DNA of 64,000 nucleotides, from contig CAZXQG010000005.1 of assembly GCA_964642725.1 (NCBI GenBank), positions 16,597-80,596 on the forward strand, given 5' to 3'. Within the stretch, counting starts at the first letter, position 1. Every line of letters begins with the position of its first letter. A program made the position numbers and the translations under genes. The notes beneath the pieces were generated by a model that was not told the origin of the DNA, ran no database searches, and was given only the letters and a program-made list of their open reading frames with translations. The DNA is from an uncultured Chitinophagaceae bacterium. Lineage in GTDB: Bacteria; Bacteroidota; Ignavibacteria; UBA10030; UBA8401. Shown here one piece after another: positions 27-38,537 of this stretch.

Positions 27-362
27 ATGAAATTCACATCGAAAGAAATCGCAGGGGTTACCGTAATCACGCTGGAAGGAAATGTTCTTGGCGGCCCCGA
101 TGCGACGGAATTAAACAACACGCTTCACAAGTTTATTGACGCAAAGAAAAAGAAGATCGTTGTCGACCTGAAAGGCGTTTCCTCGATGAACAGTTCCGGG
201 CTCGGCATGCTTATCGGCGGCGTTACCACAATGCGCAACGTCAAAGGCGACCTTAAACTCGCGGGCGCTTCAGAAAAGATCCTCAAACTTCTGCAGGTAA
301 CAAAGCTGCTTTCCGTCTTCGAACATTTCGATACGACAAAGAAAGCGGTTGAAAGCTTCTGA
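27..362 (+). CDS. STAS-domain anti-sigma-factor antagonist (SpoIIAA/RsbV-like)
   Basis: 111 aa. STAS-like pattern with a phosphorylatable Ser region (VSSMNSSGLGMLIGG). An intrinsic terminator hairpin follows at 386-420. Confidence 0.7.
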   Translation: MKFTSKEIAGVTVITLEGNVLGGPDATELNNTLHKFIDAKKKKIVVDLKGVSSMNSSGLGMLIGGVTTMRNVKGDLKLAGASEKILKLLQVTKLLSVFEHFDTTKKAVESF

Positions 363-8315: not shown

Positions 8316-8335
8316 CTCTCATGCATAATACGAAG

Positions 8336-8407
8336 AGCTGAAGGTGGGATTTGAACCCACGACCTGCGGTTTACGAAACCGCTGCTCTACCGCTGAGCTA
8401 CTTCAGC
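8336..8407 (-). tRNA. tRNA-Thr (anticodon CGU)
   Basis: Cloverleaf folded by hand from the minus-strand sequence GCTGAAGTAGCTCAGCGGTAGAGCAGCGGTTTCGTAAACCGCAGGTCGTGGGTTCAAATCCCACCTTCAGCT. Acceptor stem 7 bp, D arm GCTC/GAGC, T arm GTGGG-TTCAAAT-CCCAC, anticodon loop TTCGTAA. CCA is not encoded. Confidence 0.9.
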
Positions 8408-19213: not shown

Positions 19214-20128
19214 TCATGGTTCATTGTTGATTGTCTTCTTAATGTATAGCATTGCCGTCCCCTCCGTCCCGATTCGAAACCTCGACTGCAGCTCTTCTAC
19301 GGTTGCGCCATTCTGTGCCATAATCGTCGCAGCAGTGTGCCGCAGCGAAAACGCTGTAATCCGGCGAACTTTTCCGTTCTTCACGCCTGCTCTCTCAAGA
19401 TACATGTTGACGCGCTGCCTGATTCCGCGTGTCGTCATTCTCTTTCCACGTGTCCGATTCCCTGCACTCATGATCAATGGTTCATTTTCTCGGGCATCAT
19501 TTCTGAAGGCAAGATATCCGAGGAACGCTTCCTTCACATCGTTAGGAAGAAGAACGGTTGTTTCTTTTGTCGTTTTACCTTTGCCCTGAACATTGAAGAT
19601 CATTGTCGAGCTAACGATCTTCAAATCGCCGATATTCGCACGGATCAATTCTATCTCCGATAATCCGCATCCGACCATCGCTTTGATGATTGCGAAGTCT
19701 CGAAACCCCCGCTCATCATTCCGATCGATCGACTGAAAAATCGCTTGAATATCCTGCAACGAGATCGTCTCTCGAGAATGCTGCTGCGGTCTCTTGTTTC
19801 CTTTTACCTCTTTTGCAGGATTCCGTTCCAGGACTTTGACCTCGACCAAATAATCAAAAAGACGCCTCAGTGCCGTAAGGTAAGTGGAGACCGAAACTGG
19901 TGCAAGCTTGATTTTTTTTATTAAATATGTCTTGTATCGCTCTACATCCGCTACACGGAACAGAAATTTTTGATCCAACGGATACCAGCGCATGAATTCA
20001 TGCAGTGAGCGTTCATACGTGCCGCGAGTTTCGGGCTTGCTCTTTCGCAGTTCTTTCAGAAATCCCTCGAAATGGCCGAGCAATCGCTTGTGAGAAATCC
20101 GGACAGAAGAAAATTGCGACGATTTCAT
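19214..20128 (-). CDS. Tyrosine-type site-specific recombinase (XerC/XerD family)
   Basis: 304 aa. N-terminal SAM-like domain, C-terminal catalytic block LRHTAATIMAQNG…LYI (R, H, Y present); the first His of the HxxR box appears replaced (AFSLRH). Confidence 0.7.
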   Translation of the reverse strand: MKSSQFSSVRISHKRLLGHFEGFLKELRKSKPETRGTYERSLHEFMRWYPLDQKFLFRVADVERYKTYLIKKIKLAPVSVSTYLTALRRLFDYLVEVKVLERNPAKEVKGNKRPQQHSRETISLQDIQAIFQSIDRNDERGFRDFAIIKAMVGCGLSEIELIRANIGDLKIVSSTMIFNVQGKGKTTKETTVLLPNDVKEAFLGYLAFRNDARENEPLIMSAGNRTRGKRMTTRGIRQRVNMYLERAGVKNGKVRRITAFSLRHTAATIMAQNGATVEELQSRFRIGTEGTAMLYIKKTINNEP

Positions 20129-21575: not shown

Positions 21576-22828
21576 TGGCCGCCGGCAACGTCCCCAAAAA
21601 AGCCAGATCGGTAAAAGAAGCAAGCAGCGTATTGTACAATTGCTCATCACGGCAGAAGAACGCCTTGCTCAAAGCGATTGTCTTTCGACTACGCGATCAA
21701 ATTCCAGAGATTCTCCAAGCGAACAAAAAGGATCTCAAAAGCGCCGCAGCCGCAAAGTTATCAGACGTGTTAACAGATCGCCTCACATTGAATGAACAAC
21801 GGATAGCGCAAATGATGGAAGGGGTAAAGGACGTCATTAAATTAAGCGACGCCGTCGGCACTGTAGTCGAGAAAATAAAGAGACCGAATGGACTCTGTAT
21901 AGAGAAAATGCGAGTTCCCCTGGGTGCAGTGGGTATTATTTACGAATCGCGGCCTAATGTGACAATCGATGCGGCAGCGCTCTGCCTAAAATCCGGAAAT
22001 GCAGTATTGCTTCGCGGAGGTTCCGAAGCAATCCACACAAACAAAAAACTTGTTGCCGTTATCAAAACAGCGCTGAACGAGGTCGACCTTCCTGCGGGCT
22101 GCGTCGAGTTTATTGATACCACGGACCGAGCCGCAGTGCTGGAGATGTTGAAGCAAGAAAAATATCTCGACGTGGTCATTCCCCGAGGGAGTCAGCAACT
22201 GATCAGTTTTATTCAGGCAAACTCCTCCGTGCCCGTAATCGCACACGGCGAGGGCAATTGCCATATCTATGTGGACAACTCTGCCGACATTGCAATGGCA
22301 GAAGAGATTGTCTTCAATGCTAAAGTCCAAAGGCCGTCAGTCTGCAACGCTGCTGAAAAACTGTTAGTCCACAGTTCCATTGCCGCACAATTCCTTCCTC
22401 GCGTAGCACGAAGGCTATCGCGCGCGGGAGTTGAAATCAGAGGGGACAAAGAAACGCTTGCATTTGTTGAGAATGCAATTCCTGCTGCACAAACCGATTG
22501 GAGTAAAGAATATCTGGACTTGATCATCGCAATAAAAGTAGTAAAAAACCTCGATGCAGCGATCATGCATATCAACCGGTACGGTTCACACCATTCCGAT
22601 GCGATCGTCACGCAAAACACAAGTCATGGCGAACGATTCTTACGGGAGGTCGATTCGGCCGCTGTGTATGTGAACGCTTCGACGCGGTTTACCGATGGTT
22701 TTGAATTCGGCCTTGGCGCGGAAATAGGGATAAGCACGCAAAAGCTTCATGCGCGCGGTCCGATGGGACTCGTCGATCTGACAAGCATTAAGTACGTCGT
22801 TCACGGGAAGGGACAGATCAGAAAGTAG
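21575..22828 (+). CDS. proA: Gamma-glutamyl phosphate reductase
   Basis: ALDH-like ProA blocks, catalytic Cys region (VCNAAEKLLVH). Its start overlaps the proB stop. Confidence 0.9.
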   Translation: MAAGNVPKKARSVKEASSVLYNCSSRQKNALLKAIVFRLRDQIPEILQANKKDLKSAAAAKLSDVLTDRLTLNEQRIAQMMEGVKDVIKLSDAVGTVVEKIKRPNGLCIEKMRVPLGAVGIIYESRPNVTIDAAALCLKSGNAVLLRGGSEAIHTNKKLVAVIKTALNEVDLPAGCVEFIDTTDRAAVLEMLKQEKYLDVVIPRGSQQLISFIQANSSVPVIAHGEGNCHIYVDNSADIAMAEEIVFNAKVQRPSVCNAAEKLLVHSSIAAQFLPRVARRLSRAGVEIRGDKETLAFVENAIPAAQTDWSKEYLDLIIAIKVVKNLDAAIMHINRYGSHHSDAIVTQNTSHGERFLREVDSAAVYVNASTRFTDGFEFGLGAEIGISTQKLHARGPMGLVDLTSIKYVVHGKGQIRK

Positions 22829-22900
22829 GAATTTAAGAGCCAGGAGTATGCCGAAGAATTCGCTTCACTGTTTGCTCATTGTTGATTGTTCATTGATGTT

Positions 22901-24658
22901 TCACTCAACGCATTTCATCACAACAAGTGTGATATCGTCGGATTGCGGCGCGCCAGAAGTGTAGCGCGCAATTTCGTTTTGAATTTCATCGAGAGTGCGC
23001 TGAGCTGTCAGCGGGCCGATAGTTCGCAAAAACTCTTCAACCTTCTCTTCTGTATAATCAACCCCTTCGACATTCATCGCTTCGCTTATTCCGTCGGTGA
23101 ACATGACAACGACGTCTCCGGGAAATAGCTGAACGTCTCCCTCGATGTACGGCGCCGCCTCTCTCGTCACGCCGAGAATAATTCCCCCTTCCTTCAGCCT
23201 TTCGATTGACTTGTTCTTCCGCACAACGAAAGGATAATTATGACCCGCATTTACATAACGGAACATTTTAGTGACCGGATCAAAAATTCCCCAGCAAAAG
23301 GTGATGAATTTATCGCTGCCGGTATTGTCGCAAATGAGGCGGTTCACCCGCGAAGTCATTTCAGAGAGAGGAAGATCGAAATGAACAAGCGTTCGGATCG
23401 TTGCCTGGACATTCGCCATCAAAAGCGAAGCGGGCGCCCCTTTGCCCGACACATCACCGATGGCTATTACGCAACGCCCGCCTTCCAGAACAACGACGTC
23501 GTAGTAGTCCCCGCCAACCTGCTTTGAGGAGATGTTCAAGGCCGCAAGATCCAGTCCCGGAATTTTCGGCAGTGAACGTGGAAGCAGGCCTTTTTGAATC
23601 TCGCGGGCGATGTTCAATTCATTTTCCATCTTTTGCTTTTCGACAGCTTCGTAAAAGAGGCGCGTGTTTTCCAATGAAATGATGGCGAGATTTCCAAGAC
23701 TGTAGATGAACTCCAGGTCCGAATCCGAGTACACTCCTCCGCGAAGCCGCTCGCCAAGGCACAACATCCCTTTCACTTCATTCTGCACCTGAAGCGGAAT
23801 AAGAGCAACGATCCCCTGCTCCTCACAGGCCTCCCGAAGAGTCAACAAAACTTTTTTTCGCTGAAGGTCAGATACTAACACGGGTGAAGTGATGTTTTCG
23901 AACAGCACCTGCTTGTATTCTGAAAAATCCTGTGTATTGATCCGCGAAGCAACGGTCTCGCCGTTCCGGAGAAACACTGCATAGCGGCTTGCCCCCACTT
24001 GCCCCATCAGCGTAAACGTGAAAAGCTTCAACAGCTTTTCCCTGTCAAAAATAGCGTTGAACTCTTTGCTGAGCTCGAACAGCGTGCGCAATTCCTGGAC
24101 TTTTTCGTCGAGTGCCCGGTTGACATTCTTCACTTCCCCGAAGGCAATTCCTTTTTCAATCGCCGCTGCGGAGATGCTGATAATTGCCTCGACAAAACCT
24201 TTCTCCTCTGTCGTCAGTTTTTCTTTGCTCACACGTTTGCCTATCCCAAAAAACCCCAGGACGATGCCGTGAGATACGATCGGAAACATCCTCACAATGC
24301 CGATTTTGAAAAGCTGCACCTCATCGGGGCTCATGGTATGGGAAAGGGCAAAGCTCCTTCGTGGAACGCGCGGGAAAACAAATTCTTTTGAAGCAAACTC
24401 AACGGGAATTCCTTTAGAGTTTTCTATACGGAAGTGCTTCTCTTTCGTTTTAATGAGCACAACGCTCTTAGACATCAGGAGTTTCCCCATCAATGTTAAG
24501 AGAACGGTTCCGAGTATGAATTTCAGGTCGAGGGAAGAATTCACAATGTTGCTGAATTCAAACAACGGCGTAATATCGGCAAGGCGATTGATGTTCGGCG
24601 AATGCGTGGAAGGCTTCAAAAGGAACGATCCTTGGCGTTCATAATTCGGATGCCTCAT
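22901..24658 (-). CDS. PP2C-family serine phosphatase with tandem N-terminal GAF domains (RsbU/SpoIIE-type)
   Basis: C-terminal PPM blocks GGDYYDVV, GDVSGKGAPASLLMA, VNAGHNYPF, MFTDGISEA; N-terminal ~350 aa are GAF-like. Confidence 0.8.
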   Translation of the reverse strand: MRHPNYERQGSFLLKPSTHSPNINRLADITPLFEFSNIVNSSLDLKFILGTVLLTLMGKLLMSKSVVLIKTKEKHFRIENSKGIPVEFASKEFVFPRVPRRSFALSHTMSPDEVQLFKIGIVRMFPIVSHGIVLGFFGIGKRVSKEKLTTEEKGFVEAIISISAAAIEKGIAFGEVKNVNRALDEKVQELRTLFELSKEFNAIFDREKLLKLFTFTLMGQVGASRYAVFLRNGETVASRINTQDFSEYKQVLFENITSPVLVSDLQRKKVLLTLREACEEQGIVALIPLQVQNEVKGMLCLGERLRGGVYSDSDLEFIYSLGNLAIISLENTRLFYEAVEKQKMENELNIAREIQKGLLPRSLPKIPGLDLAALNISSKQVGGDYYDVVVLEGGRCVIAIGDVSGKGAPASLLMANVQATIRTLVHFDLPLSEMTSRVNRLICDNTGSDKFITFCWGIFDPVTKMFRYVNAGHNYPFVVRKNKSIERLKEGGIILGVTREAAPYIEGDVQLFPGDVVVMFTDGISEAMNVEGVDYTEEKVEEFLRTIGPLTAQRTLDEIQNEIARYTSGAPQSDDITLVVMKCVE

Positions 24659-24684
24659 TCGATGTCAATGAGGGGCAAGAATTC

Positions 24685-25122
24685 TTAGTGGAGATATTTA
24701 ATAAGTCTCACGACGTTCTTTTTAGGATGAATCGTGTACTCCACTTTATCCATCAACTTCTTCATCAAATACATTCCCAATCCGCCCCGTTTGTAGTGAG
24801 ACATGTACTCTTTCATGTTCGGGACCGGTATCTGGTTGGGATTAAAATGTTTTCCATGATCCTCGATAAGAATTTCAAACTCCGGCTTTTTCATCGAAAC
24901 GACAATGTCAATTTGCTTGTCCGCGGCATAGCTGTAGGCGTGCTTGATAATGTTCGTACATGCTTCATCAACAGCGAGGGCAATATTGTTGACGTCATCT
25001 TCCTTAAAGCCGAAGACCTTTGCCGCATCGGCGACAAATTCGCGCGCCATGTTCAGCTTCTCCGTCTGGCTTGGAATGCGCAAATTCAATCGAGTTGTCT
25101 TTTGATTACCGCCGCTGGTCAA
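24685..25122 (-). CDS. RsbW/SpoIIAB-like anti-sigma-factor serine kinase (HATPase_c)
   Basis: 145 aa. GHKL ATPase N-box (DEACTNIIKHAY) and G-box (GGLGMYLM). Confidence 0.75.
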   Translation of the reverse strand: MTSGGNQKTTRLNLRIPSQTEKLNMAREFVADAAKVFGFKEDDVNNIALAVDEACTNIIKHAYSYAADKQIDIVVSMKKPEFEILIEDHGKHFNPNQIPVPNMKEYMSHYKRGGLGMYLMKKLMDKVEYTIHPKKNVVRLIKYLH

Positions 25123-25160
25123 CGTTCCAATCTCCTTTTTCCCGTGAGGTTCATGGTTTC

Positions 25161-25526
25161 CTACTTGCTCGATTGTTTCTTTGCATCGAACTTTTTCACC
25201 GCCTCGTGTTCATCGGTGAAGATTTCGTACAACATCGGAAAACCGAGAAGGTCGAAGATATTGTAGACTTTCGGCGACATGTTGGACATCTTGATGTCTC
25301 CCCCACCCGTCCGCACATCCTCGATGAAGGCCATAAACACTCCCAGCCCCGCGCTGGAAATGTATGCCAGGTCCTTGCAATTGACCAAGATATTTAGTTT
25401 CTCTTCTTTGATGAGTTTTTGAAATGCCTCTTCAAGGTTTGGGGCGGTATGCGCATCCAAATATCCCTTCAAGTCCATGACATGGACTTTTCCGCTCACC
25501 CGAAATGAAATCTTGAATTCGTTCAT
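25161..25526 (-). CDS. STAS-domain anti-anti-sigma-factor (RsbV/SpoIIAA-like)
   Basis: STAS fold pattern with conserved phospho-Ser context (LAYISSAGLGVF). Confidence 0.75.
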   Translation of the reverse strand: MNEFKISFRVSGKVHVMDLKGYLDAHTAPNLEEAFQKLIKEEKLNILVNCKDLAYISSAGLGVFMAFIEDVRTGGGDIKMSNMSPKVYNIFDLLGFPMLYEIFTDEHEAVKKFDAKKQSSK

Positions 25527-25565
25527 CTGATAACTCCTCACAATAATAGTTGAAAATCGTCTCTC

Positions 25566-27662
25566 TCACCGTGGCGCTCCCTTCCATTTCACCACGAACA
25601 CAGTGAGATCATCATCATATCCTTGAGCGTCCGTGTAACTCCAGACGCGTTGAATGATTTCTTCCTTAATCTCTTCCGCAGAATGCGAGCGCTTTTCTTG
25701 AACAACGCTCATCAAACGCTCGTAGCCGAATTCTTCTCCCGCTGAGGAGCGCGATTCCGTAACGCCATCCGTATAAAAAACGCAGACATCCCCCTTATTC
25801 ATCATGATCCTTTTTTCTTCAAGCGAGTCTTCGAATAACATTCCGGCACTCAACCCTAAACCCATGCCGGTCGGTGTAATGTACTCAATCGAGGCAGAAG
25901 TTGCATACAACATCGGGCAATGTCCGGCTCGGCTGAGAACAAGCTCCCCTGTCGAAACATCGAGGACGGCATAAATTAAACTAATAAAAGATCGTTTGTC
26001 AATGCTCGAGATCAGCGACTGATTTGCTTTGATGAGAAATGTTCTGGGAGATGAATAAATTTTGCTGAGCGACTGGAAAATACCTTTCACTTCTGCCATA
26101 TAAAAAGCGGCTCCGACTCCTTTGCCCGAGACATCGCCGATGACGATGCCGACATGGCGGTCATCCAGTATTGCAATATCATAATAGTCGCCGCCAACTT
26201 CGAGGGCCGGTGCGGAGACAGCCTGCATTTCCACGTTCGGGAATATCGGGAGCGTTTGCGGGAGAAGGCGCTTCTGCATTTCCTGTGCGAGTAGTAATTC
26301 CCGCTGAAGACGCTCCTTTTCCAGCGACCGTTGAATCAATGTTGCGTTCTCGATCGCAATGGTCACTTGGTCGGCAAACCCGGACAACACTTCGATGTCG
26401 TCTTGGTCAAAACCGAAATCCATTTGTTTCGTCGCGTAAAGGATTCCTATCAGATTTTGATGCGACACCAGCGGCACCACCAAAAGCGATCCGACCTTCT
26501 TGAGCTTTGTCATATATTTCGTGCGACGGTCGGTGCTCACATCATCGATGAGCAGGACTTTTTTTGAGGAGAATACGAGCGAGCGGATCGAAACCTGATC
26601 GCCGAATAAGATCGTCTGGATATCCTCGGTTGAAATATTCCTCGCAGAGACAATTCCATTGCTGGCGTGGGAGGATTTTCTCTCTCCTTCGTTTGGAAAA
26701 ACTTCCAGCCACGAACTCGACGCCTCACAAACCTCAAAGGTCATCTTCGTGACAGTCTCCGCCAATTCGTTAAGGTCAAACACCTGCGTAATGAGCCTGC
26801 TGAGGTTGTGGAGCGAACTCAATTCGGTCTGTTTCCGGTCGAAGGCTTCTGCCGTCGGCAAATGGAAGAGTGTGCTGATGAATGCCATTCCAAAATACAC
26901 GGCGCCGAACAACGAGGTCAATTGAACAAACGTGTGCAGCGGATAACTGAAATAGAGGAGTGCCTTTGCCAAAAACGGTTTGTCTGAAATGGAGAGAAGA
27001 ATGTTGACCGCCATGAAAGCAAAAAAAGCGAGCAAGGCGTAGACCATCGCATAAATCTTCTCACGACGCGACAGGTACGCGATCCATGACAATCGGAACG
27101 AGTTAACGATAATCATGACGACGGCAAGAACAAAAAAGACGGTCGTGTAAACCGACAGCTCGAGCGGCCGGAGGTTGATCGTCGTCGCAGATGCTAGGAA
27201 GAAAAAGATCAGCAGAATCCAAAAATTGCGCCGCGTCCCTTTTTTCCTTTTATACAACAGCATGTCCTTGATATTGAGCATTGTCATAACCGCCACAATG
27301 CCGGCAGCGATGCTCAGAACGGTGGAAAAAAGAATGGTGATATAATCGCGGGGAAATAATTTGAACGCCCGAGTTTCAAATTCATTGAAGTGCAGCACAC
27401 TTGCAGTGATCGACAGGGCGACAAAGATTCCAGCCCATGCAGCAACCCGACCGATTCGCTGAATCATTGTGAACTGGCGTTCTTTTCTCAGCGTTTCGAT
27501 GTAGAATGTGCAGAGAATAAAAGCAAGAATAACTAACGCTCCGCGGCCAACGGAAAAATTTCCGAGCTCAGCATCGAGGCTCTTCATCGTGGCATCGATA
27601 ATGAACACCGAGCTAAAAAGGAGAATGGAAACGAGGAGTGAAAGTAGTTTTCTAATCTTCAT
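25566..27662 (-). CDS. Polytopic membrane PP2C phosphatase (SpoIIE-like: N-terminal ~9-TM domain, GAF, C-terminal PPM)
   Basis: Hydrophobic N-terminal ~280 aa; C-terminal PPM blocks GGDYYDIA, GDVSGKGVGAAFYMA, SRAGHCPM, FYTDGVTE. Confidence 0.8.
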   Translation of the reverse strand: MKIRKLLSLLVSILLFSSVFIIDATMKSLDAELGNFSVGRGALVILAFILCTFYIETLRKERQFTMIQRIGRVAAWAGIFVALSITASVLHFNEFETRAFKLFPRDYITILFSTVLSIAAGIVAVMTMLNIKDMLLYKRKKGTRRNFWILLIFFFLASATTINLRPLELSVYTTVFFVLAVVMIIVNSFRLSWIAYLSRREKIYAMVYALLAFFAFMAVNILLSISDKPFLAKALLYFSYPLHTFVQLTSLFGAVYFGMAFISTLFHLPTAEAFDRKQTELSSLHNLSRLITQVFDLNELAETVTKMTFEVCEASSSWLEVFPNEGERKSSHASNGIVSARNISTEDIQTILFGDQVSIRSLVFSSKKVLLIDDVSTDRRTKYMTKLKKVGSLLVVPLVSHQNLIGILYATKQMDFGFDQDDIEVLSGFADQVTIAIENATLIQRSLEKERLQRELLLAQEMQKRLLPQTLPIFPNVEMQAVSAPALEVGGDYYDIAILDDRHVGIVIGDVSGKGVGAAFYMAEVKGIFQSLSKIYSSPRTFLIKANQSLISSIDKRSFISLIYAVLDVSTGELVLSRAGHCPMLYATSASIEYITPTGMGLGLSAGMLFEDSLEEKRIMMNKGDVCVFYTDGVTESRSSAGEEFGYERLMSVVQEKRSHSAEEIKEEIIQRVWSYTDAQGYDDDLTVFVVKWKGAPR

Positions 27663-27908
27663 GAAAAACGGTTGATGGAATACGTATGATACTTACTTTA
27701 CTTCGTTGAAAATGAGGGAAAGTTGCAGCCAGCCGCATCAAAAATATCGAAAAGCGGGTTGAATAACAAGGAGAAGAGAGGAGTGCTTTTCGGCCTATTT
27801 CCCCTGTTGGGTCAAAACAATTCTCAAAAATCTATTGCAAAGAATGAGAAAATTTCTTATCTTCATTGAAGAAATTAAGCATGTGAAGGAAAGGAATTTT
27901 TAGATATT

Positions 27909-28100
27909 ATGGCAAAAGTCTGTGAAATATGCGGTAAAAGGCCGATTGCGGGAAACAATGTAAGCCATGCAAACAACCGGTCTCCGCGTCGATGGCTTCC
28001 AAATCTTCAGGAAGTGCGGGCAATGGTCAACGGCTCCGTCAAGCGTGTGAGGGTATGCAGTTCTTGCTTGAAAGCAGGAAAAATTCAGAAAGCCATCTGA
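27909..28100 (+). CDS. rpmB: 50S ribosomal protein L28
   Basis: 63 aa, [12 protein letters not shown]…; terminator at 28125-28153. Confidence 0.9.
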
Positions 28101-28124
28101 CCAATAACGAGGTTTTAAGATTGC

Positions 28125-28153
28125 AAAGGTCATCGTCACGATGGCCTTTTTTG
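28125..28153 (+). terminator. Intrinsic terminator after rpmB
   Basis: Stem aggtcatcg/cgatggcct followed by tttttt. Confidence 0.55.
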
Positions 28154-28257
28154 TTTGTCCGGCGCCAGAACATTAATGCGATTTAATGAGCCACTTTGCC
28201 CACGCGCTTTCATTTTTCGATATAAATAGGTAGATTAGGCAGAATTGAGGAGATGAG

Positions 28258-28881
28258 ATGTCCCCACCTAATCAGCTTACACTGCTGCGAATCATTTTAA
28301 CGCCTGCATTTGCGTTACTCCTGTTTTCTGACTCTCCGACAAATAAACAGTTAGCATTGCTCGTGTATTGCCTTGCGGCGCTGACCGATTGGTACGACGG
28401 ATGGGTTGCACGGCGATGGGGCTACATTACACGGTGGGGAAAGTTTCTCGACCCGCTAGCAGACAAAGTGCTGACATCGGTTGCGTTTATTTCTTTTATC
28501 TATATCGGGTACGCAAGCGCGTGGATGGTGTGGATTATTGTTACAAGGGATATCTTTATAACGCTTCTCCGTTCATATTCTGAATACAAGGGTAAGCCGG
28601 TCGAAACAATAAAATTTGCGCGGACAAAAACATTCTTCCAACTCGTCGTCATTTACCTCTTCCTCGTCGCATACGTCATCAGAAGCTCTCCGACGCTCTA
28701 TGCCCATTACGGTATTTGGGTTGAAATTGCAGCCGCCAAAGAAATCATGTTCGGGCTGATGTTGATAGTAACAATCCTTACTGCATGGTCGGGAGTTCTC
28801 TATCTCGTCCAAAACTGGAATATCATTAAAGAATTATTCATGCCGAATGATCGAGCCGCCGAAACTGAACAACCCAACTGA
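28258..28881 (+). CDS. pgsA: CDP-diacylglycerol--glycerol-3-phosphate 3-phosphatidyltransferase
   Basis: CDP-alcohol phosphatidyltransferase motif DWYDGWVAR…GKFLDPLADK. Confidence 0.85.
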   Translation: MSPPNQLTLLRIILTPAFALLLFSDSPTNKQLALLVYCLAALTDWYDGWVARRWGYITRWGKFLDPLADKVLTSVAFISFIYIGYASAWMVWIIVTRDIFITLLRSYSEYKGKPVETIKFARTKTFFQLVVIYLFLVAYVIRSSPTLYAHYGIWVEIAAAKEIMFGLMLIVTILTAWSGVLYLVQNWNIIKELFMPNDRAAETEQPN

Positions 28882-29359
28882 CACAATCGTTGTAGAATCT
28901 CAGCCGTCGCCGGCTGTATCTCCGCTTATTAAGATTTTTGCGTCCGCTCTTTTTTCAGGCTATGCACCGTTTGCCTCTGGAACAGTGGGAACGTTGGTCG
29001 GAATTCTCATTTACCTCATCCCCTCATTTTCCCAAACAGCAATCCTGCTGCCAGCGTGCGCCTTTGTGTTCGTCCTCGGAAGCCTTGCAGCCGGTACAAT
29101 GGAAAAAGCATACGGCCATGACCCGTCGATCGTTACTATCGACGAAGTCCTGGGAATCTGGGTCAGCCTTCTCTTTCTGCCAAAATCATACGTCATTATC
29201 GCGGCTGCTTTCTTTTTCTTCCGACTATTCGACGTGCTCAAGCCGTGGCCCGCGAACGTGTTCGACAAAAGGCACGGCGGCTGGAATATCATGCTCGACG
29301 ACGTCGTTGCTGGAATATACACGAACGTCGTTCTTCAAATCGCTTTCAGAGTTTTTTAG
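28847..29359 (+). CDS. pgpA: Phosphatidylglycerophosphatase A
   Basis: PgpA pattern FSGYAPFASGTVGTL…DEVLG…FRLFDVLKPWP. The annotated start overlaps the pgsA 3' end; the true start may lie further downstream. Confidence 0.75.
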   Translation: MIEPPKLNNPTDTIVVESQPSPAVSPLIKIFASALFSGYAPFASGTVGTLVGILIYLIPSFSQTAILLPACAFVFVLGSLAAGTMEKAYGHDPSIVTIDEVLGIWVSLLFLPKSYVIIAAAFFFFRLFDVLKPWPANVFDKRHGGWNIMLDDVVAGIYTNVVLQIAFRVF

Positions 29360-35801: not shown

Positions 35802-36146
35802 ATGGTCGAAGTAACCACAGCACTTAAAGCGTTGTCAGAAGAAATTCGAATCAGGCTGCTCCTCGTACTATTACATGAGGAAGCGTGCGTCTGCGAACTC
35901 ATGGCAACGTTTAATATGGCTCAGTCAAAGCTCTCTCATCATTTGATTGCTCTTCGCGATGCTGGATTCATCAAAGATGAAAAAAGAGGAAAATGGAATT
36001 ACTATCGGATCGATACGAACAGCCTCGACCCGATGAAAAAAGAACTTCTCTCTTCACTCACTGGCTGGGTTGACGATGATTCGATCATTGAGAAAGATCG
36101 ATTGACGCTCGAAAAAGTAAAGAACAAAATGCAGATCTGCTGCTAA
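35802..36146 (+). CDS. arsR: ArsR/SmtB-family metalloregulator
   Basis: HTH with metal-binding Cys pair (ACVCELM) and the LSHHL recognition helix. Confidence 0.8.
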   Translation: MVEVTTALKALSEEIRIRLLLVLLHEEACVCELMATFNMAQSKLSHHLIALRDAGFIKDEKRGKWNYYRIDTNSLDPMKKELLSSLTGWVDDDSIIEKDRLTLEKVKNKMQICC

Positions 36147-36194
36147 TTTTTTTGAATTAACATATCAACAATAATTGATGAAAGGATTTTCCTC

Positions 36195-36974
36195 ATGAAT
36201 ACCGACCTGGAAATTAAAGAAAACGTTAAGGAGAAGTATTCACAGATAGCAAAGGGCCAGATTTCTGTTATTGCCACGAAAACTTCCTCCTGCGGTTCGG
36301 GGCAGAGTTCTTGCTGCGGAACCGGCTCCGAATCCCTGGTGCAGATGTCGTTGGACTACCATCCAGAGGATCTTTCAAACTTGCCGGAAGGGGCTGACTT
36401 GGGGCTTGGCTGCGGTGTTCCGACTGCGTTTGCTGATTTGAAAGAGGGGTATACGGTTCTTGACCTCGGTTCCGGCGCCGGCATTGATGTATTCATCGCG
36501 GCCCGGCATGTTGGCATTACTGGAAAGGCCATCGGCGTCGATATGACAGAGGCAATGATCGATAAGGCAAAAATCAACGCGAAGAAAATCAATGCAACAA
36601 ACGTCGAATTCCGGCTCGGCGAAATCGAGGCATTGCCGGTTGAAAACGCTTCTGTTGACCGCGTCATCAGTAACTGCGTGATCAATCTTGTGCCAAACAA
36701 GGAGAACGCATTCCGGGAAATCTATCGCGTCCTGAAACCGGGAGGCAAATTCACCGTGTCCGATATCGTTGTTGATGGCGCCATTTCCGTGGAAGAAAGA
36801 AACAACGCCGCATTGTGGGCAGGATGTATCAGCGGGGCGATCGACAGAAACGAATACATCGCGATCATTAAAAACGCGGGTTTCAAGAATGTTGACATCG
36901 TCTCTGAAAAACATTACGATTACAAGCTCGACAATGCGCGTTTGAATTCGATAACCATTTCCGGGACAAAATGA
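36195..36974 (+). CDS. arsM: Arsenite S-adenosylmethionine methyltransferase
   Basis: SAM-MT motif VLDLGSGAGID; conserved ArsM cysteines (SSCCG…, GCGVP). Confidence 0.8.
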   Translation: MNTDLEIKENVKEKYSQIAKGQISVIATKTSSCGSGQSSCCGTGSESLVQMSLDYHPEDLSNLPEGADLGLGCGVPTAFADLKEGYTVLDLGSGAGIDVFIAARHVGITGKAIGVDMTEAMIDKAKINAKKINATNVEFRLGEIEALPVENASVDRVISNCVINLVPNKENAFREIYRVLKPGGKFTVSDIVVDGAISVEERNNAALWAGCISGAIDRNEYIAIIKNAGFKNVDIVSEKHYDYKLDNARLNSITISGTK

Positions 36975-37402
36975 AACCGAAGATTCTCATTCTCTGCACT
37001 GGCAATTCCTGCCGAAGTCAAATGGCCGAGGGATTTCTGAAGTCATTGGATCCTTCACTTCATGTCTTTTCAGCGGGAACCAACCCCGCGGCGCGCGTCC
37101 ATCCGCTCGCCTCAAAAGTGATGAAAGAAGTCGGTATAGACATCGGCGGCAATAAACCAAAGGATGTCGAGGAGTTTATCAACGATTCTTTCGATTACGT
37201 AATTACAGTTTGCGATAATGCGAAAGAAACATGCCCTGTCTTCATTGGAAAGGTTCATCATAGATTACATATGGGATTCGACGATCCTGCTGAAGCCGTC
37301 GGAACGGAAGAAGAAGTTGCGGCTGTGTTCCGGCGTGTTCGTGATGAAATAAGAAAAACGTTCACCAGATTCAATGAACAGAAGATCACAAAGGCATCAT
37401 AG
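36971..37402 (+). CDS. arsC: Arsenate reductase, LMW-PTP family (thioredoxin-coupled ArsC)
   Basis: P-loop CTGNSCRSQMAEG plus downstream Cys residues (TVCDNAKETCP). Confidence 0.8.
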   Translation: MKPKILILCTGNSCRSQMAEGFLKSLDPSLHVFSAGTNPAARVHPLASKVMKEVGIDIGGNKPKDVEEFINDSFDYVITVCDNAKETCPVFIGKVHHRLHMGFDDPAEAVGTEEEVAAVFRRVRDEIRKTFTRFNEQKITKAS

Positions 37403-37499
37403 AGCAATTTGACAATCCATCATTAACAACATTAACAACGGAAGGCCCTTTGGGAAAGAAACAATTCTGTTTGCTTGCGTCCACATAGGATAAGAACTC

Positions 37500-38537
37500 A
37501 TGGACAACATACGCAAGCAACTCTCACTGATTGATCGATACCTGACGCTTTGGATTTTTCTAGCCATGGGCTTAGGTGTCGGGCTTGGATCATCGTTGCC
37601 CCGCATAGCGGATTTCTGGGACTCGTTAAGCTCCGGAACAACAAACATTCCGATCGCTATCGGGCTCATCCTGATGATGTATCCGCCCCTGGCGAAAGTA
37701 AAGTACGAAGAACTCGGCGATGTGTTCAAGAATAGAAAAGTGCTTCTCCTCTCGCTTATTCAAAATTGGCTCGTCGGCCCGGTGTTAATGTTTCTTCTCG
37801 CAATAATATTTCTGCATGGATATCCAGAATTCATGGCCGGACTGATCATAATTGGCCTGGCTCGCTGCATTGCCATGGTCATTGTATGGAACGAACTCGC
37901 TCAAGGCGATACGGAATACGCTGCAGGCCTTGTCGCGTTCAATTCGATCTTTCAAGTTCTTTTCTTCCCTCTGTATGCCTACTTGTTTCTGACGATCTTC
38001 CCTTCGTGGTTTGGGCTGCAGACATTCGTCGTCAATATCACCATCACCCAAATTGCAAAGAGTGTTTTCATCTATCTCGGCATTCCATTCTTAGCCGGAA
38101 TGATCACGCGATTCATACTGCTGAAACTGAAAAGTAAAGAGTGGTATCAAGAAACATTCATACCGAGAATTTCTCCCATCACGCTTATCGCTCTTTTGTT
38201 CACGATCGTTGTGATGTTCTCTCTCAAAGGAGAATACATACTTAAAATTCCGCTTGACGTTGTTCGCATTGCGATCCCCCTTATTGTCTATTTCGTCACA
38301 ATGTTCGGCATTTCATTCTATCTTGGGAGAAAGAGCGGGGCGGGATACGCAAAGTCAGCGACGCTATCTTTCACAGCAGCAAGTAATAATTTTGAATTAG
38401 CGATCGCTGTTTCTATTGCCGTATTTGGAATTCATTCCGGTGTGGCATTTGCAGCGGTGATTGGTCCCTTGGTTGAAGTGCCGGTGTTGATATCGCTTGT
38501 AAACGTGTCGTTGAGATTGAAGAAGAAATATTATTAA
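37500..38537 (+). CDS. acr3: Arsenite efflux permease ACR3
   Basis: 10-TM BART-superfamily pattern. The conserved Cys falls in GLARCIAMV (C in TM4). Confidence 0.8.

What the first reader, a model, noticed from the sequence alone, without database searches (positions are those of the whole stretch)
22901..27662. Four-gene partner-switching cassette with two PP2C input phosphatases and no linked sigma factor
Four co-directional, tightly spaced minus-strand genes (gaps of 24-38 nt). In order of transcription: a ~9-TM SpoIIE-like PP2C, a STAS protein, an RsbW/SpoIIAB-type GHKL kinase, and a GAF-GAF-PP2C. In Firmicutes such modules sequester a sigma factor encoded in the same operon; no sigma gene lies in or beside this cluster. 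The output partner of the kinase therefore remains unknown. A second, orphan STAS gene sits 27 kb away at 27-362. The tandem GAF domains suggest a small-molecule input; the membrane domain suggests an envelope input.
Basis: partly seen in the sequence, partly recalled or inferred. Interest (0 to 1): 0.6.

Follow-up and report, generated by a model that had tools for sequence, protein, structure and literature searches.

The report
Sigma-less partner-switching signalling operon
Four adjacent genes in an uncultured Ignavibacteria-like bacterium encode an ordinary-looking protein phosphorylation switch (one kinase, one small target protein, two sensor phosphatases) that is conserved across its relatives; no sigma factor gene lies nearby, a situation already known from several other bacteria.

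Summary
On the minus strand at 22901-27662 there are four co-directional genes with gaps of 26-39 nt: an 8-TM-GAF-PP2C phosphatase, a STAS protein, an RsbW-type GHKL serine kinase, and a GAF-GAF-PP2C phosphatase. All catalytic and phospho-acceptor motifs are intact. No sigma-factor domain occurs in the 64-kb window, nor within 10 kb beyond the left edge or about 8 kb beyond the right edge.

The cassette is conserved in the same order in GTDB species of Ignavibacteria and relatives. STAS plus kinase sit upstream of the GAF-GAF-PP2C in 63 of 68 loci, and the membrane PP2C is present in 43 of 60.

Three refinements follow.
- The "orphan" STAS at 27-362 is the third gene of secD-secF-STAS. In 17 of 54 relatives its ortholog lies within 10 kb upstream of the cassette.
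- In one clade (15 loci) an autoregulated ECF sigma/zf-HC2 anti-sigma pair lies directly upstream of the cassette. Neither that pair nor its promoter motif is in this window.
- STAS is the most conserved component.

Partner switches without a linked sigma are already described (Chlamydia, Bordetella, Vibrio, Rhodobacter, Nostoc). This is a new member of a known kind. Its output is unknown. Interest is modest.

The parts
25566..27662 (-). Gene 1: membrane input phosphatase, 698 aa. It has 8 TM helices (about 2-276), a GAF domain (296-439) and a PP2C/SpoIIE domain (500-694).
   Evidence: Pfam; hydropathy; AF2. The TM domain has no Pfam match and no PDB fold match. The metal-binding motifs GGDYYD, GDVSGKG, TDG and DDD(L)T are nearly invariant in 40 homologs. 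Closest solved PP2C is Rv1364c, E 3e-14.
25161..25526 (-). Gene 2: single-domain STAS protein (anti-sigma-antagonist type), 121 aa, with phospho-acceptor Ser58 in ISSAGLG.
   Evidence: Pfam STAS 1.7e-17; TIGR00377 70.1 bits, above its 53.45 cut-off. Ser58 aligns with SpoIIAA Ser58 and the RsbV phospho-Ser and is invariant in 47/47 orthologs. It is the most conserved cassette protein (median 65.5% identity).
24685..25122 (-). Gene 3: RsbW/SpoIIAB-type GHKL serine kinase, 145 aa, TTG start.
   Evidence: HATPase_c_2 3.1e-32. Best PDB hit is B. subtilis RsbW 6m36, E 1.2e-16. N-box E53/N57/H61, G1 D88xG90 and G2 G113-G114-x-G116 are conserved in 60-66 of 66 orthologs.
22901..24658 (-). Gene 4: cytoplasmic input phosphatase, 585 aa. 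It has GAF-1 (about 23-150 plus a long helix to about 204), GAF-2 (205-331) and a PP2C domain (393-582).
   Evidence: Pfam; GAF-1 by AF2 plus Foldseek. Invariant D384, D387, D402, D522, D574 and D575 in the alignment.
27719..27769 (-). Putative promoter of the operon: TTG (27769-27767), N20, TATTTTTG (27746-27739), plus a conserved GCAACTTT block (27726-27719).
   Evidence: The block is conserved upstream of gene 1 in the window and in L007-L016. The match to the Bacteroidota primary-sigma consensus (TTG / TAnnTTTG) comes from my own knowledge and is inferred, not tested.
27..362 (+). Second STAS protein (STAS2), 111 aa, third gene of secD-secF-STAS2. It is the probable second substrate of the cassette kinase.
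   Evidence: Pfam. The secD-secF context is shown. The MNSSGLG motif is invariant in 15/15 orthologs. Its ortholog lies within 10 kb upstream of the cassette in 17/54 loci, in two different arrangements.

Best explanation
The four genes form one operon that encodes a serine-phosphorylation partner switch. The operon is probably read from a housekeeping-type promoter.

The RsbW-type kinase phosphorylates Ser58 of the STAS protein, and probably the equivalent serine of the unlinked STAS2. Two PP2C phosphatases remove that phosphate. One is gated by an 8-helix membrane domain plus a GAF domain. The other is gated by tandem cytoplasmic GAF domains. Two different signals therefore converge on the phosphorylation state of one small protein, as RsbU and RsbP do on RsbV in Bacillus.

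The output is not a sigma factor encoded in or near the operon. I commit to a STAS-centred output. The unphosphorylated STAS protein(s) would be the active species and act on a partner encoded elsewhere that need not be a sigma factor. The kinase would serve mainly as the off-switch, as in SypA/SypE, RbaV/RbaW and HmpV/HmpW.

Shown here: gene order, domains, intact catalytic and acceptor residues, conservation of the operon, and absence of a sigma gene. Inferred: who phosphorylates whom, the signals sensed, and the output.
For: Domains and motifs.

Operon-like spacing.

Conservation of order in GTDB species loci: STAS plus kinase in 63/68, membrane PP2C in 43/60.

Variable input phosphatases: other lineages add or swap a PDZ-GAF-PP2C or a REC-PP2C around the same STAS-kinase core. 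This fits a design in which many inputs converge on one STAS.

No sigma domain in the window or beyond its edges. Among 120 flank ORFs of 30 loci, the only Sigma70_r2/r4_2 matches number six, equal to the six ECF-clade loci kept in that set.

STAS is the most conserved component in 42/43 complete cassettes (65.5% median identity, against 51.7% for the kinase and about 44% for the phosphatases). This is expected if STAS must keep interfaces with the kinase, two or three phosphatases and a target.

A second STAS with a conserved acceptor serine, and no kinase or phosphatase of its own, stays syntenic with the cassette.

Precedents for STAS-output systems without a sigma: PMC8256260 and PMC9127174.
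Against: Nothing here shows any protein-protein interaction or phosphorylation.

The kinase is a typical small RsbW-like protein (best PDB hit RsbW). Kinases of this type do sequester sigma factors encoded elsewhere in some bacteria (Chlamydia sigma-66, PMC8256260; RpoS via HsbR-HsbA in P. aeruginosa, abstract of PMC6482189).

Only 64 kb of the genome plus about 18 kb of flanks was searched, so an unlinked group-2 or group-3 sigma partner cannot be excluded.

Higher conservation of STAS than of the kinase is only suggestive. My comparison with canonical RsbV/RsbW conservation rests on memory, not on a test made here.
Confidence: 0.5

Rival explanations
1. Canonical anti-sigma partner switch with an unlinked sigma. 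The kinase dimer sequesters a sigma factor encoded elsewhere in the genome (primary, group 2, or a FliA/SigB-like group 3). Dephosphorylated STAS displaces it.
For: The kinase is most similar to B. subtilis RsbW (E 1.2e-16; NCBIfam RsbW model 90.6 bits). STAS matches the anti-sigma-antagonist superfamily model above its cut-off. Unlinked sigma targets are documented for Chlamydia and for RpoS in P. aeruginosa (PMC6482189 abstract).
Against: There is no sigma gene in about 82 kb around the cassette. No recurrent sigma of the SigB/F type appears next to the cassette in 30 loci. The kinase scores below the RsbW and SpoIIAB equivalog cut-offs. The kinase is less conserved than STAS.
Confidence: 0.35
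2. The module is an accessory regulator of an ECF sigma/anti-sigma pair. In Ignavibacteriaceae-type genomes the ECF sigma and its zf-HC2 anti-sigma precede the cassette. In the window's organism the pair would simply be encoded elsewhere.
For: In 15 loci the order is ECF sigma (Sigma70_r2 plus r4_2), zf-HC2 protein, 8TM-GAF-PP2C, STAS, kinase, GAF-GAF-PP2C. The only GGAAC-N16-CGTCT promoter in each locus lies upstream of the ECF gene, so read-through into the cassette is possible. A sigma-24 target was proposed for a flavobacterial rsbUVW cluster (PMC2668756).
Against: The linkage is confined to one clade (15 of 78 loci). No homolog of that ECF or anti-sigma is in the window or in the other loci. 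The ECF promoter motif is absent from the window, and the looser pattern occurs at chance level. The ECF already has its own anti-sigma. About 240 nt separate the anti-sigma gene from the cassette.
Confidence: 0.1
3. The adjacency is coincidental, or the module is decayed. The PP2Cs would act on other substrates (for example targets of Hanks-type kinases), and the STAS and kinase would be non-functional remnants.
For: None specific. PP2C phosphatases can have several substrates.
Against: The same order is kept across family- to phylum-level relatives. The acceptor Ser and the kinase ATP-binding boxes are invariant. All four ORFs are intact.
Confidence: 0.03

Closest known systems
Chlamydia trachomatis Rsb system (RsbU, RsbV1, RsbV2, RsbW; PMC8256260)
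   Same: Both have a membrane-anchored PP2C input phosphatase, one RsbW-type kinase and two STAS proteins with acceptor serines. Neither has a SigB ortholog or a sigma gene in the cluster, and the target is debated or unknown in both. A second chlamydial PP2C (CT259) is recalled from my own knowledge, not taken from the review.
   Different: The chlamydial genes are scattered, and RsbU senses through a periplasmic domain. Here the genes form a compact operon. Sensing is by an 8-TM bundle with almost no periplasmic loops plus GAF domains, and the second phosphatase is GAF-GAF-PP2C. The sequence relationship is at domain level only.
Bacillus subtilis RsbU/RsbP-RsbV-RsbW-SigB
   Same: Two input PP2Cs with different sensor modules converge on one STAS protein that is phosphorylated by an RsbW-type kinase. 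The kinase and the STAS are the closest solved relatives (6m36).
   Different: There is no sigB-like gene in the operon or within about 82 kb, and no RsbT, stressosome or RsbQ partners. The proteins score below the NCBIfam equivalog cut-offs. The GAF and 8-TM sensors replace the RsbU N-domain and the RsbP PAS domain.
STAS-output switches: V. fischeri SypA/SypE, R. capsulatus RbaV/RbaW, Nostoc HmpUVW and hcyA-D
   Same: All have a STAS, a kinase and a PP2C without a linked sigma. The unphosphorylated STAS is thought to be the active output, and the target is unknown.
   Different: They differ in domain architectures and phyla (SypE is a fused kinase-phosphatase; hcyD is a hybrid histidine kinase). 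They have no second GAF-GAF-PP2C and no secDF-linked second STAS.
Mycobacterium tuberculosis Rv1364c (fused PP2C-kinase-STAS; PDB 3ke6)
   Same: It is the closest solved PP2C domain to both phosphatases (E about 1e-14). It has the same three activities.
   Different: In Rv1364c the activities are fused in one polypeptide and linked to SigF biology. Here they are separate proteins.

Membership tests
RsbW/SpoIIAB-type anti-sigma serine kinases (Pfam HATPase_c_2, GHKL) | Pfam PF13581 match above the gathering score | tested here: met
   111.7 bits against a cut-off of 27.4
RsbW/SpoIIAB-type anti-sigma serine kinases (Pfam HATPase_c_2, GHKL) | N-box (E..N..H) and G1/G2 ATP-binding boxes | tested here: met
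   DEACTNIIKHAY, EDHGKHF and GGLGMYL align with RsbW. They are conserved in 60-66 of 66 orthologs.
RsbW/SpoIIAB-type anti-sigma serine kinases (Pfam HATPase_c_2, GHKL) | Orthology to RsbW or SpoIIAB (NCBIfam equivalog cut-offs) | tested here: not met
   NF003144 90.6 bits against 145; TIGR01924 76.3 against 155; TIGR01925 62.8 against 135. It is RsbW-like but not an RsbW or SpoIIAB ortholog.
RsbW/SpoIIAB-type anti-sigma serine kinases (Pfam HATPase_c_2, GHKL) | Binds and inhibits a sigma factor | not testable with these tools
   No interaction assay is available, and no sigma gene lies in the region.
Anti-sigma-factor antagonists (single-domain STAS, TIGR00377) | Superfamily model above its cut-off | tested here: met
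   TIGR00377 70.1 bits against 53.45; Pfam STAS 63.5 against 22.6
Anti-sigma-factor antagonists (single-domain STAS, TIGR00377) | Conserved phosphorylatable serine at the start of helix 3 | tested here: met
   Ser58 aligns with SpoIIAA S58 and the RsbV DST serine. It is invariant in 47/47 orthologs. STAS2 has MNSSGLG in 15/15.
Anti-sigma-factor antagonists (single-domain STAS, TIGR00377) | Orthology to SpoIIAA (equivalog) | tested here: not met
   TIGR02886 51.6 bits against 114.75
PPM/PP2C phosphatases of the SpoIIE/RsbU type (PF07228) | Pfam match and metal-binding aspartates | tested here: met
   146.1 and 159.3 bits against a cut-off of 25. The GGDYYD, GDVSGKG, TDG and DD motifs are invariant or nearly so.
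PPM/PP2C phosphatases of the SpoIIE/RsbU type (PF07228) | Orthology to SpoIIE itself (TIGR02865) | tested here: not met
   For the 585-aa protein: 46.6 bits against a cut-off of 490.8. TIGR02865 did not appear among the hits of the 698-aa membrane protein. Its membrane domain has no Pfam or PDB relative. 'SpoIIE-like' applies to the catalytic domain only.
SigB/SigF-type partner-switching operon | Sigma factor gene in the same operon | tested here: not met
   No Sigma70 domain was found in the window or its flanks.
Partner-switching systems without a linked sigma (functional class, not a homology family) | STAS plus RsbW-type kinase plus PP2C encoded together, with no sigma gene | tested here: met
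GAF domain (first domain of the 585-aa protein) | GAF fold | tested here: met
   No Pfam match. AF2 model pLDDT 87.6. The top 50 Foldseek PDB hits are almost all GAF-containing structures, best E 3.1e-7. Ligand binding was not tested.

The most novel reading that the evidence does not exclude
The switch is a clade-wide hub of Ignavibacteria and relatives, expressed like a housekeeping gene, whose outputs are the two STAS proteins rather than a sigma factor. One of them, STAS2, keeps company with secD-secF in three different gene arrangements, which would couple the switch to protein export or envelope homeostasis. That output has not been described for any partner switch.
Probability: 0.12. 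Interest if true: 0.6.

Novelty: new member of a known kind. Interest (0 to 1): 0.3.

Why it matters
The work defines a well-conserved, uncharacterised partner-switching operon in a poorly studied lineage: Ignavibacteria and related FCB groups, reaching Balneolales and Calditrichota in a three-gene form.

It also gives concrete handles for study:
- acceptor serines in two STAS proteins;
- two or three interchangeable sensor phosphatases;
- a new 8-TM sensor domain with no Pfam or PDB relative;
- a syntenic second STAS.

If the output turns out not to be a sigma factor, this would add a phylum-level example to the growing class of STAS-output switches. As it stands it is an annotation-level refinement, not a surprise.

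Tried and rejected
1. A sigma factor in or near the window. Pfam scans or precomputed Pfam covered essentially all ORFs of 80 aa or more, plus 10 kb to the left and about 8 kb to the right. None was found.

2. The ECF link. The ECF sigma and anti-sigma found next to the cassette in 15 loci have no tblastn match in the window. Their promoter GGAAC-N16-CGTCT is absent from the window. The looser GGAAC-N15-18-CGTC gives 4 hits, all inside genes, against 2.5 expected by chance.

3. A riboswitch or leader RNA upstream. There is no Rfam hit in 22000-29000 at E up to 0.1.

4. The sigma-70 promoter and terminator scan. The promoter-like sites (4 found, 6.5 expected) are at chance level. The 11 terminator-like sites (6.3 ± 2.4 expected) are a modest excess, but all minus-strand ones lie inside coding sequence. 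The one strong promoter-like match (24668-24641) places its -10 element downstream of the gene 4 start codon.

5. Identity of the 8-TM domain. It has no Pfam match and no PDB fold match (best E 0.26, TM-score below 0.3).

6. Two look-ups of window proteins by exact sequence failed, probably because the called starts differ.

7. Literature searches for a described Bacteroidota or Ignavibacterium partner switch found only a remark on a flavobacterial rsbUVW cluster.

8. A whole-genome sigma inventory of the organism was not possible. Only the window and fetched flanks are available.

Full report
OBSERVATION

The minus strand between 22901 and 27662 carries four intact, co-directional ORFs:
- 25566-27662, 698 aa.
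- 25161-25541, STAS. This is 126 aa from a GTG. More likely it is 121 aa from ATG 25526, which has a GAGGAG box upstream and is the start called in public assemblies.
- 24685-25122, 145 aa, TTG start with AAGGAG upstream.
- 22901-24658, 585 aa.

The gaps are 24 or 39, 38 and 26 nt.

Pfam gives these matches:
- SpoIIE/PP2C at 1.5e-42 and 1.4e-46.
- STAS at 1.7e-17.
- HATPase_c_2 at 3.1e-32.
- GAF at 1.2e-10 in the 698-aa protein (residues 296-439).
- A weaker GAF at residues 205-331 of the 585-aa protein.

These values are far beyond chance.
- The membrane domain has eight helices, not about nine (hydropathy; AF2 model with pLDDT 84 and pTM 0.83). The loops are short, the only notable one being a beta-hairpin at 95-104.
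- The membrane phosphatase also contains a GAF domain.
- The N-terminal 200 residues of the 585-aa protein have no Pfam match even at E=1. They fold as a GAF domain (pLDDT 87.6). The Foldseek PDB hits are essentially all GAF domains, led by the Lcd1 GAF at E 3e-7. GAF-GAF-PP2C is therefore right.

FUNCTIONAL RESIDUES

STAS Ser58, in the motif ISSAGLG, aligns with SpoIIAA Ser58 and with the RsbV acceptor serine. It is invariant in 47/47 orthologs.

The kinase aligns best with B. subtilis RsbW (6m36, E 1.2e-16). It keeps three boxes in 60-66 of 66 orthologs:
- the N-box E53/N57/H61;
- G1, D88-x-G90;
- G2, G113-G114-x-G116.

Both PP2C domains keep the metal-binding motifs GGDYYD, GDVSGKG, TDG and DD. 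Their closest solved relative is M. tuberculosis Rv1364c, followed by RssB and SpoIIE.

All four proteins score below NCBIfam's equivalog cut-offs for RsbW, SpoIIAB, SpoIIAA and SpoIIE. They belong to those superfamilies but are not orthologs of the Bacillus proteins.

SURROUNDINGS AND THE SIGMA QUESTION

The cassette sits among housekeeping genes.
- Downstream, proB-proA converge on it. A Xer-like recombinase gene, leuS, an ABC exporter and LPS genes follow.
- Upstream and divergent lie rpmB (27909-28100), pgsA, pgpA, cinA, ligT, recA and recX.

Pfam scans or precomputed Pfam assignments cover essentially every ORF of 80 aa or more in the window. They also cover 10 kb beyond the left edge and about 8 kb beyond the right edge. 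No Sigma70 or Sigma54 domain was found.

ORGANISM AND CONSERVATION

The identical region occurs on ENA and JGI metagenome contigs of up to 125 kb. The nearest named relatives are "Bacteroidota bacterium" and Ignavibacteriales MAGs.

A scan of one genome per GTDB species returned 80 loci.
- STAS plus kinase lie directly upstream of the GAF-GAF-PP2C ortholog in 63 of 68 loci with enough flank.
- The 8-TM-GAF-PP2C ortholog is the first gene in 43 of 60 loci.

The three-gene core extends to Balneolales (Fodinibius), Caldithrix, Kryptonia and KSB1-type MAGs.

Other lineages add different input phosphatases to the same core:
- an 847-aa PDZ-GAF-PP2C downstream in Ignavibacteriaceae;
- a REC-PP2C in another group.

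Over 43 complete cassettes the median identity to the window proteins is 65.5% for STAS, 51.7% for the kinase, and 44.8% and 43.5% for the phosphatases. STAS is the most conserved protein in 42 of 43.

THE SECOND STAS

The gene at 27-362 is the third gene of secD-secF-STAS2, with a 45-nt gap after secF. Its acceptor motif MNSSGLG is invariant in 15/15 orthologs. It has no kinase or phosphatase of its own nearby.

In relatives its ortholog lies within 10 kb upstream of the cassette in 17 of 54 loci. Two arrangements occur.
- secD-secF-STAS2 lies divergent from the cassette (L011, L013, L016).
- STAS2 lies divergent from the cassette block while secD-secF lies downstream of it on the opposite strand, in several of the Ignavibacteriaceae-type loci.

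Together with the window's own layout, that makes three arrangements in which these genes stay close. This argues that STAS2 belongs to the same circuit and is probably a second substrate of the kinase.

AN ECF SIGMA IN ONE CLADE

In 15 Ignavibacteriaceae-type loci the cassette is preceded on the same strand by two genes:
- a 198-aa ECF sigma (Sigma70_r2 plus r4_2);
- an overlapping gene for a 519-aa protein with a zf-HC2 anti-sigma motif.

Each of these loci contains exactly one GGAAC-N16-CGTCT motif. It lies immediately upstream of the ECF start codon, which is a classical autoregulated ECF promoter.

This is the only recurrent sigma linkage. Among 120 flanking ORFs from 30 loci, Sigma70_r2 and r4_2 match six members, equal to the six ECF-clade loci kept in that set.

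Neither the ECF pair nor the motif (the looser pattern is at chance level) is present in the window. The link is therefore clade-specific. At most it suggests a transcriptional relationship.

PROMOTER

Upstream of gene 1, the window and loci L007-L016 share a conserved block: TTG, N20, TATTTTTG and then GCAACTTT (window 27769-27719, minus strand). By my own knowledge of Bacteroidota promoters (-33 TTG, -7 TAnnTTTG) this looks like a primary-sigma promoter. It would mean constitutive expression, as expected for a post-translational switch. This step is inferred. No Rfam element lies in the region.

MECHANISM

The best-supported reading is a serine-phosphorylation partner switch.
- The kinase phosphorylates STAS Ser58 (and STAS2).
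- The membrane 8-TM-GAF-PP2C and the cytoplasmic GAF-GAF-PP2C dephosphorylate it in response to two different signals.
- The phosphorylation state decides whether STAS binds the kinase.

I put the core at about 0.85. The output is not visible in the sequence. My estimates are:
- about 0.45-0.5 that unphosphorylated STAS1 and STAS2 act on a non-sigma partner, with the kinase as the off-switch;
- about 0.35 that the kinase sequesters a sigma factor encoded elsewhere;
- about 0.1 that the module serves an ECF pair.

Three observations favour the STAS-centred option:
- STAS is more conserved than the kinase.
- There is a second STAS with its own genomic context.
- No SigB/F-type sigma lies next to any ortholog.

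None of these is decisive.

COMPARISON WITH KNOWN SYSTEMS

Partner switches without a linked sigma are well documented.
- Chlamydia: RsbU, RsbV1, RsbV2 and RsbW.
- Bordetella: BtrUVW.
- V. fischeri: SypA/SypE.
- R. capsulatus: RbaV/RbaW.
- Nostoc: HmpUVW (PMC8256260).
- Nostoc hcyA-D, a four-gene system whose kinase binds none of the tested sigmas (PMC9127174).

An rsbUVW cluster in a marine flavobacterium was noted in 2009 as unusual for that class (PMC2668756).

The design with two input phosphatases parallels RsbU and RsbP in Bacillus. What is particular here is the lineage, the compact and widely conserved four-gene order, the GAF-based sensors, an 8-TM sensor domain with no Pfam or PDB relative, and the syntenic second STAS.

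VERDICT

It is a new member of a known kind. Interest is about 0.3. The open question of the output is genuine, but it is shared with many such systems and cannot be settled from sequence.

Noticed in passing
window 27-362 (+) with L088 7128-10336; L011, L013, L016; L044, L049, L050, L056, L061, L073: STAS2 is the third gene of a secD-secF-STAS operon. secDF, STAS2 and the partner-switch cassette stay near each other in three different arrangements across relatives.
   Followed up: partly
L044, L046, L047, L049, L050, L052, L055, L056, L058, L059, L061, L064, L071, L073, L076 (e.g. L059 4699-6889): An ECF sigma and a zf-HC2 anti-sigma lie directly upstream of the orthologous cassette. A single GGAAC-N16-CGTCT promoter ends only about 7-10 nt before the ECF start codon, which suggests a leaderless, autoregulated transcript.
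   Followed up: partly
window 27909-28100 (+), terminator-like hairpin 28125-28149: A small rpmB (ribosomal protein L28, 63 aa) gene lies divergent from the cassette. It falls below the ORF length cut-offs. It reduces the upstream intergenic region to 246 nt.
   Followed up: yes
window 8335-8407 (tRNA-Thr, -) and L089 from 18356 onward: A sister-strain contig (ENA ERZ27245394 k141_359306) is 99.9% identical to the window up to position 8381, inside the tRNA-Thr gene. It then diverges into genes that include a DnaG-primase/DnaB-helicase fusion. This is probably an element integrated at tRNA-Thr in that strain.
   Followed up: partly
window 35802-38537 (+): An arsenic-resistance-like cluster: ArsR-family regulator, SAM methyltransferase (possibly ArsM), low-molecular-weight phosphatase/ArsC-type protein, and an SBF/ACR3-type permease.
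   Followed up: no
window 19214-20128 (-): A tyrosine recombinase gene lies between proB and leuS. A homolog sits just downstream of the cassette, ahead of leuS, in 7 other loci (flank cluster 17). It is therefore probably a housekeeping Xer-type recombinase rather than a mobile-element integrase.
   Followed up: partly
L059 11732-14275; L068 11845-12990: Other lineages attach further input phosphatases to the same STAS-kinase core: a PDZ-GAF-PP2C of 847 aa and a REC-PP2C.
   Followed up: partly
window 26778-27662 (-), residues 1-295 of the 698-aa protein: This is an 8-TM sensor domain with a confident AF2 model. It has no Pfam family and no similar solved structure, and it is conserved in at least 43 species loci.
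   Followed up: partly
L017-L020, L022, L028, L033-L038, L060 (e.g. L036 105-794): A 229-aa TPR protein lies immediately upstream of the cassette on the same strand in 13 loci of another subclade.
   Followed up: no
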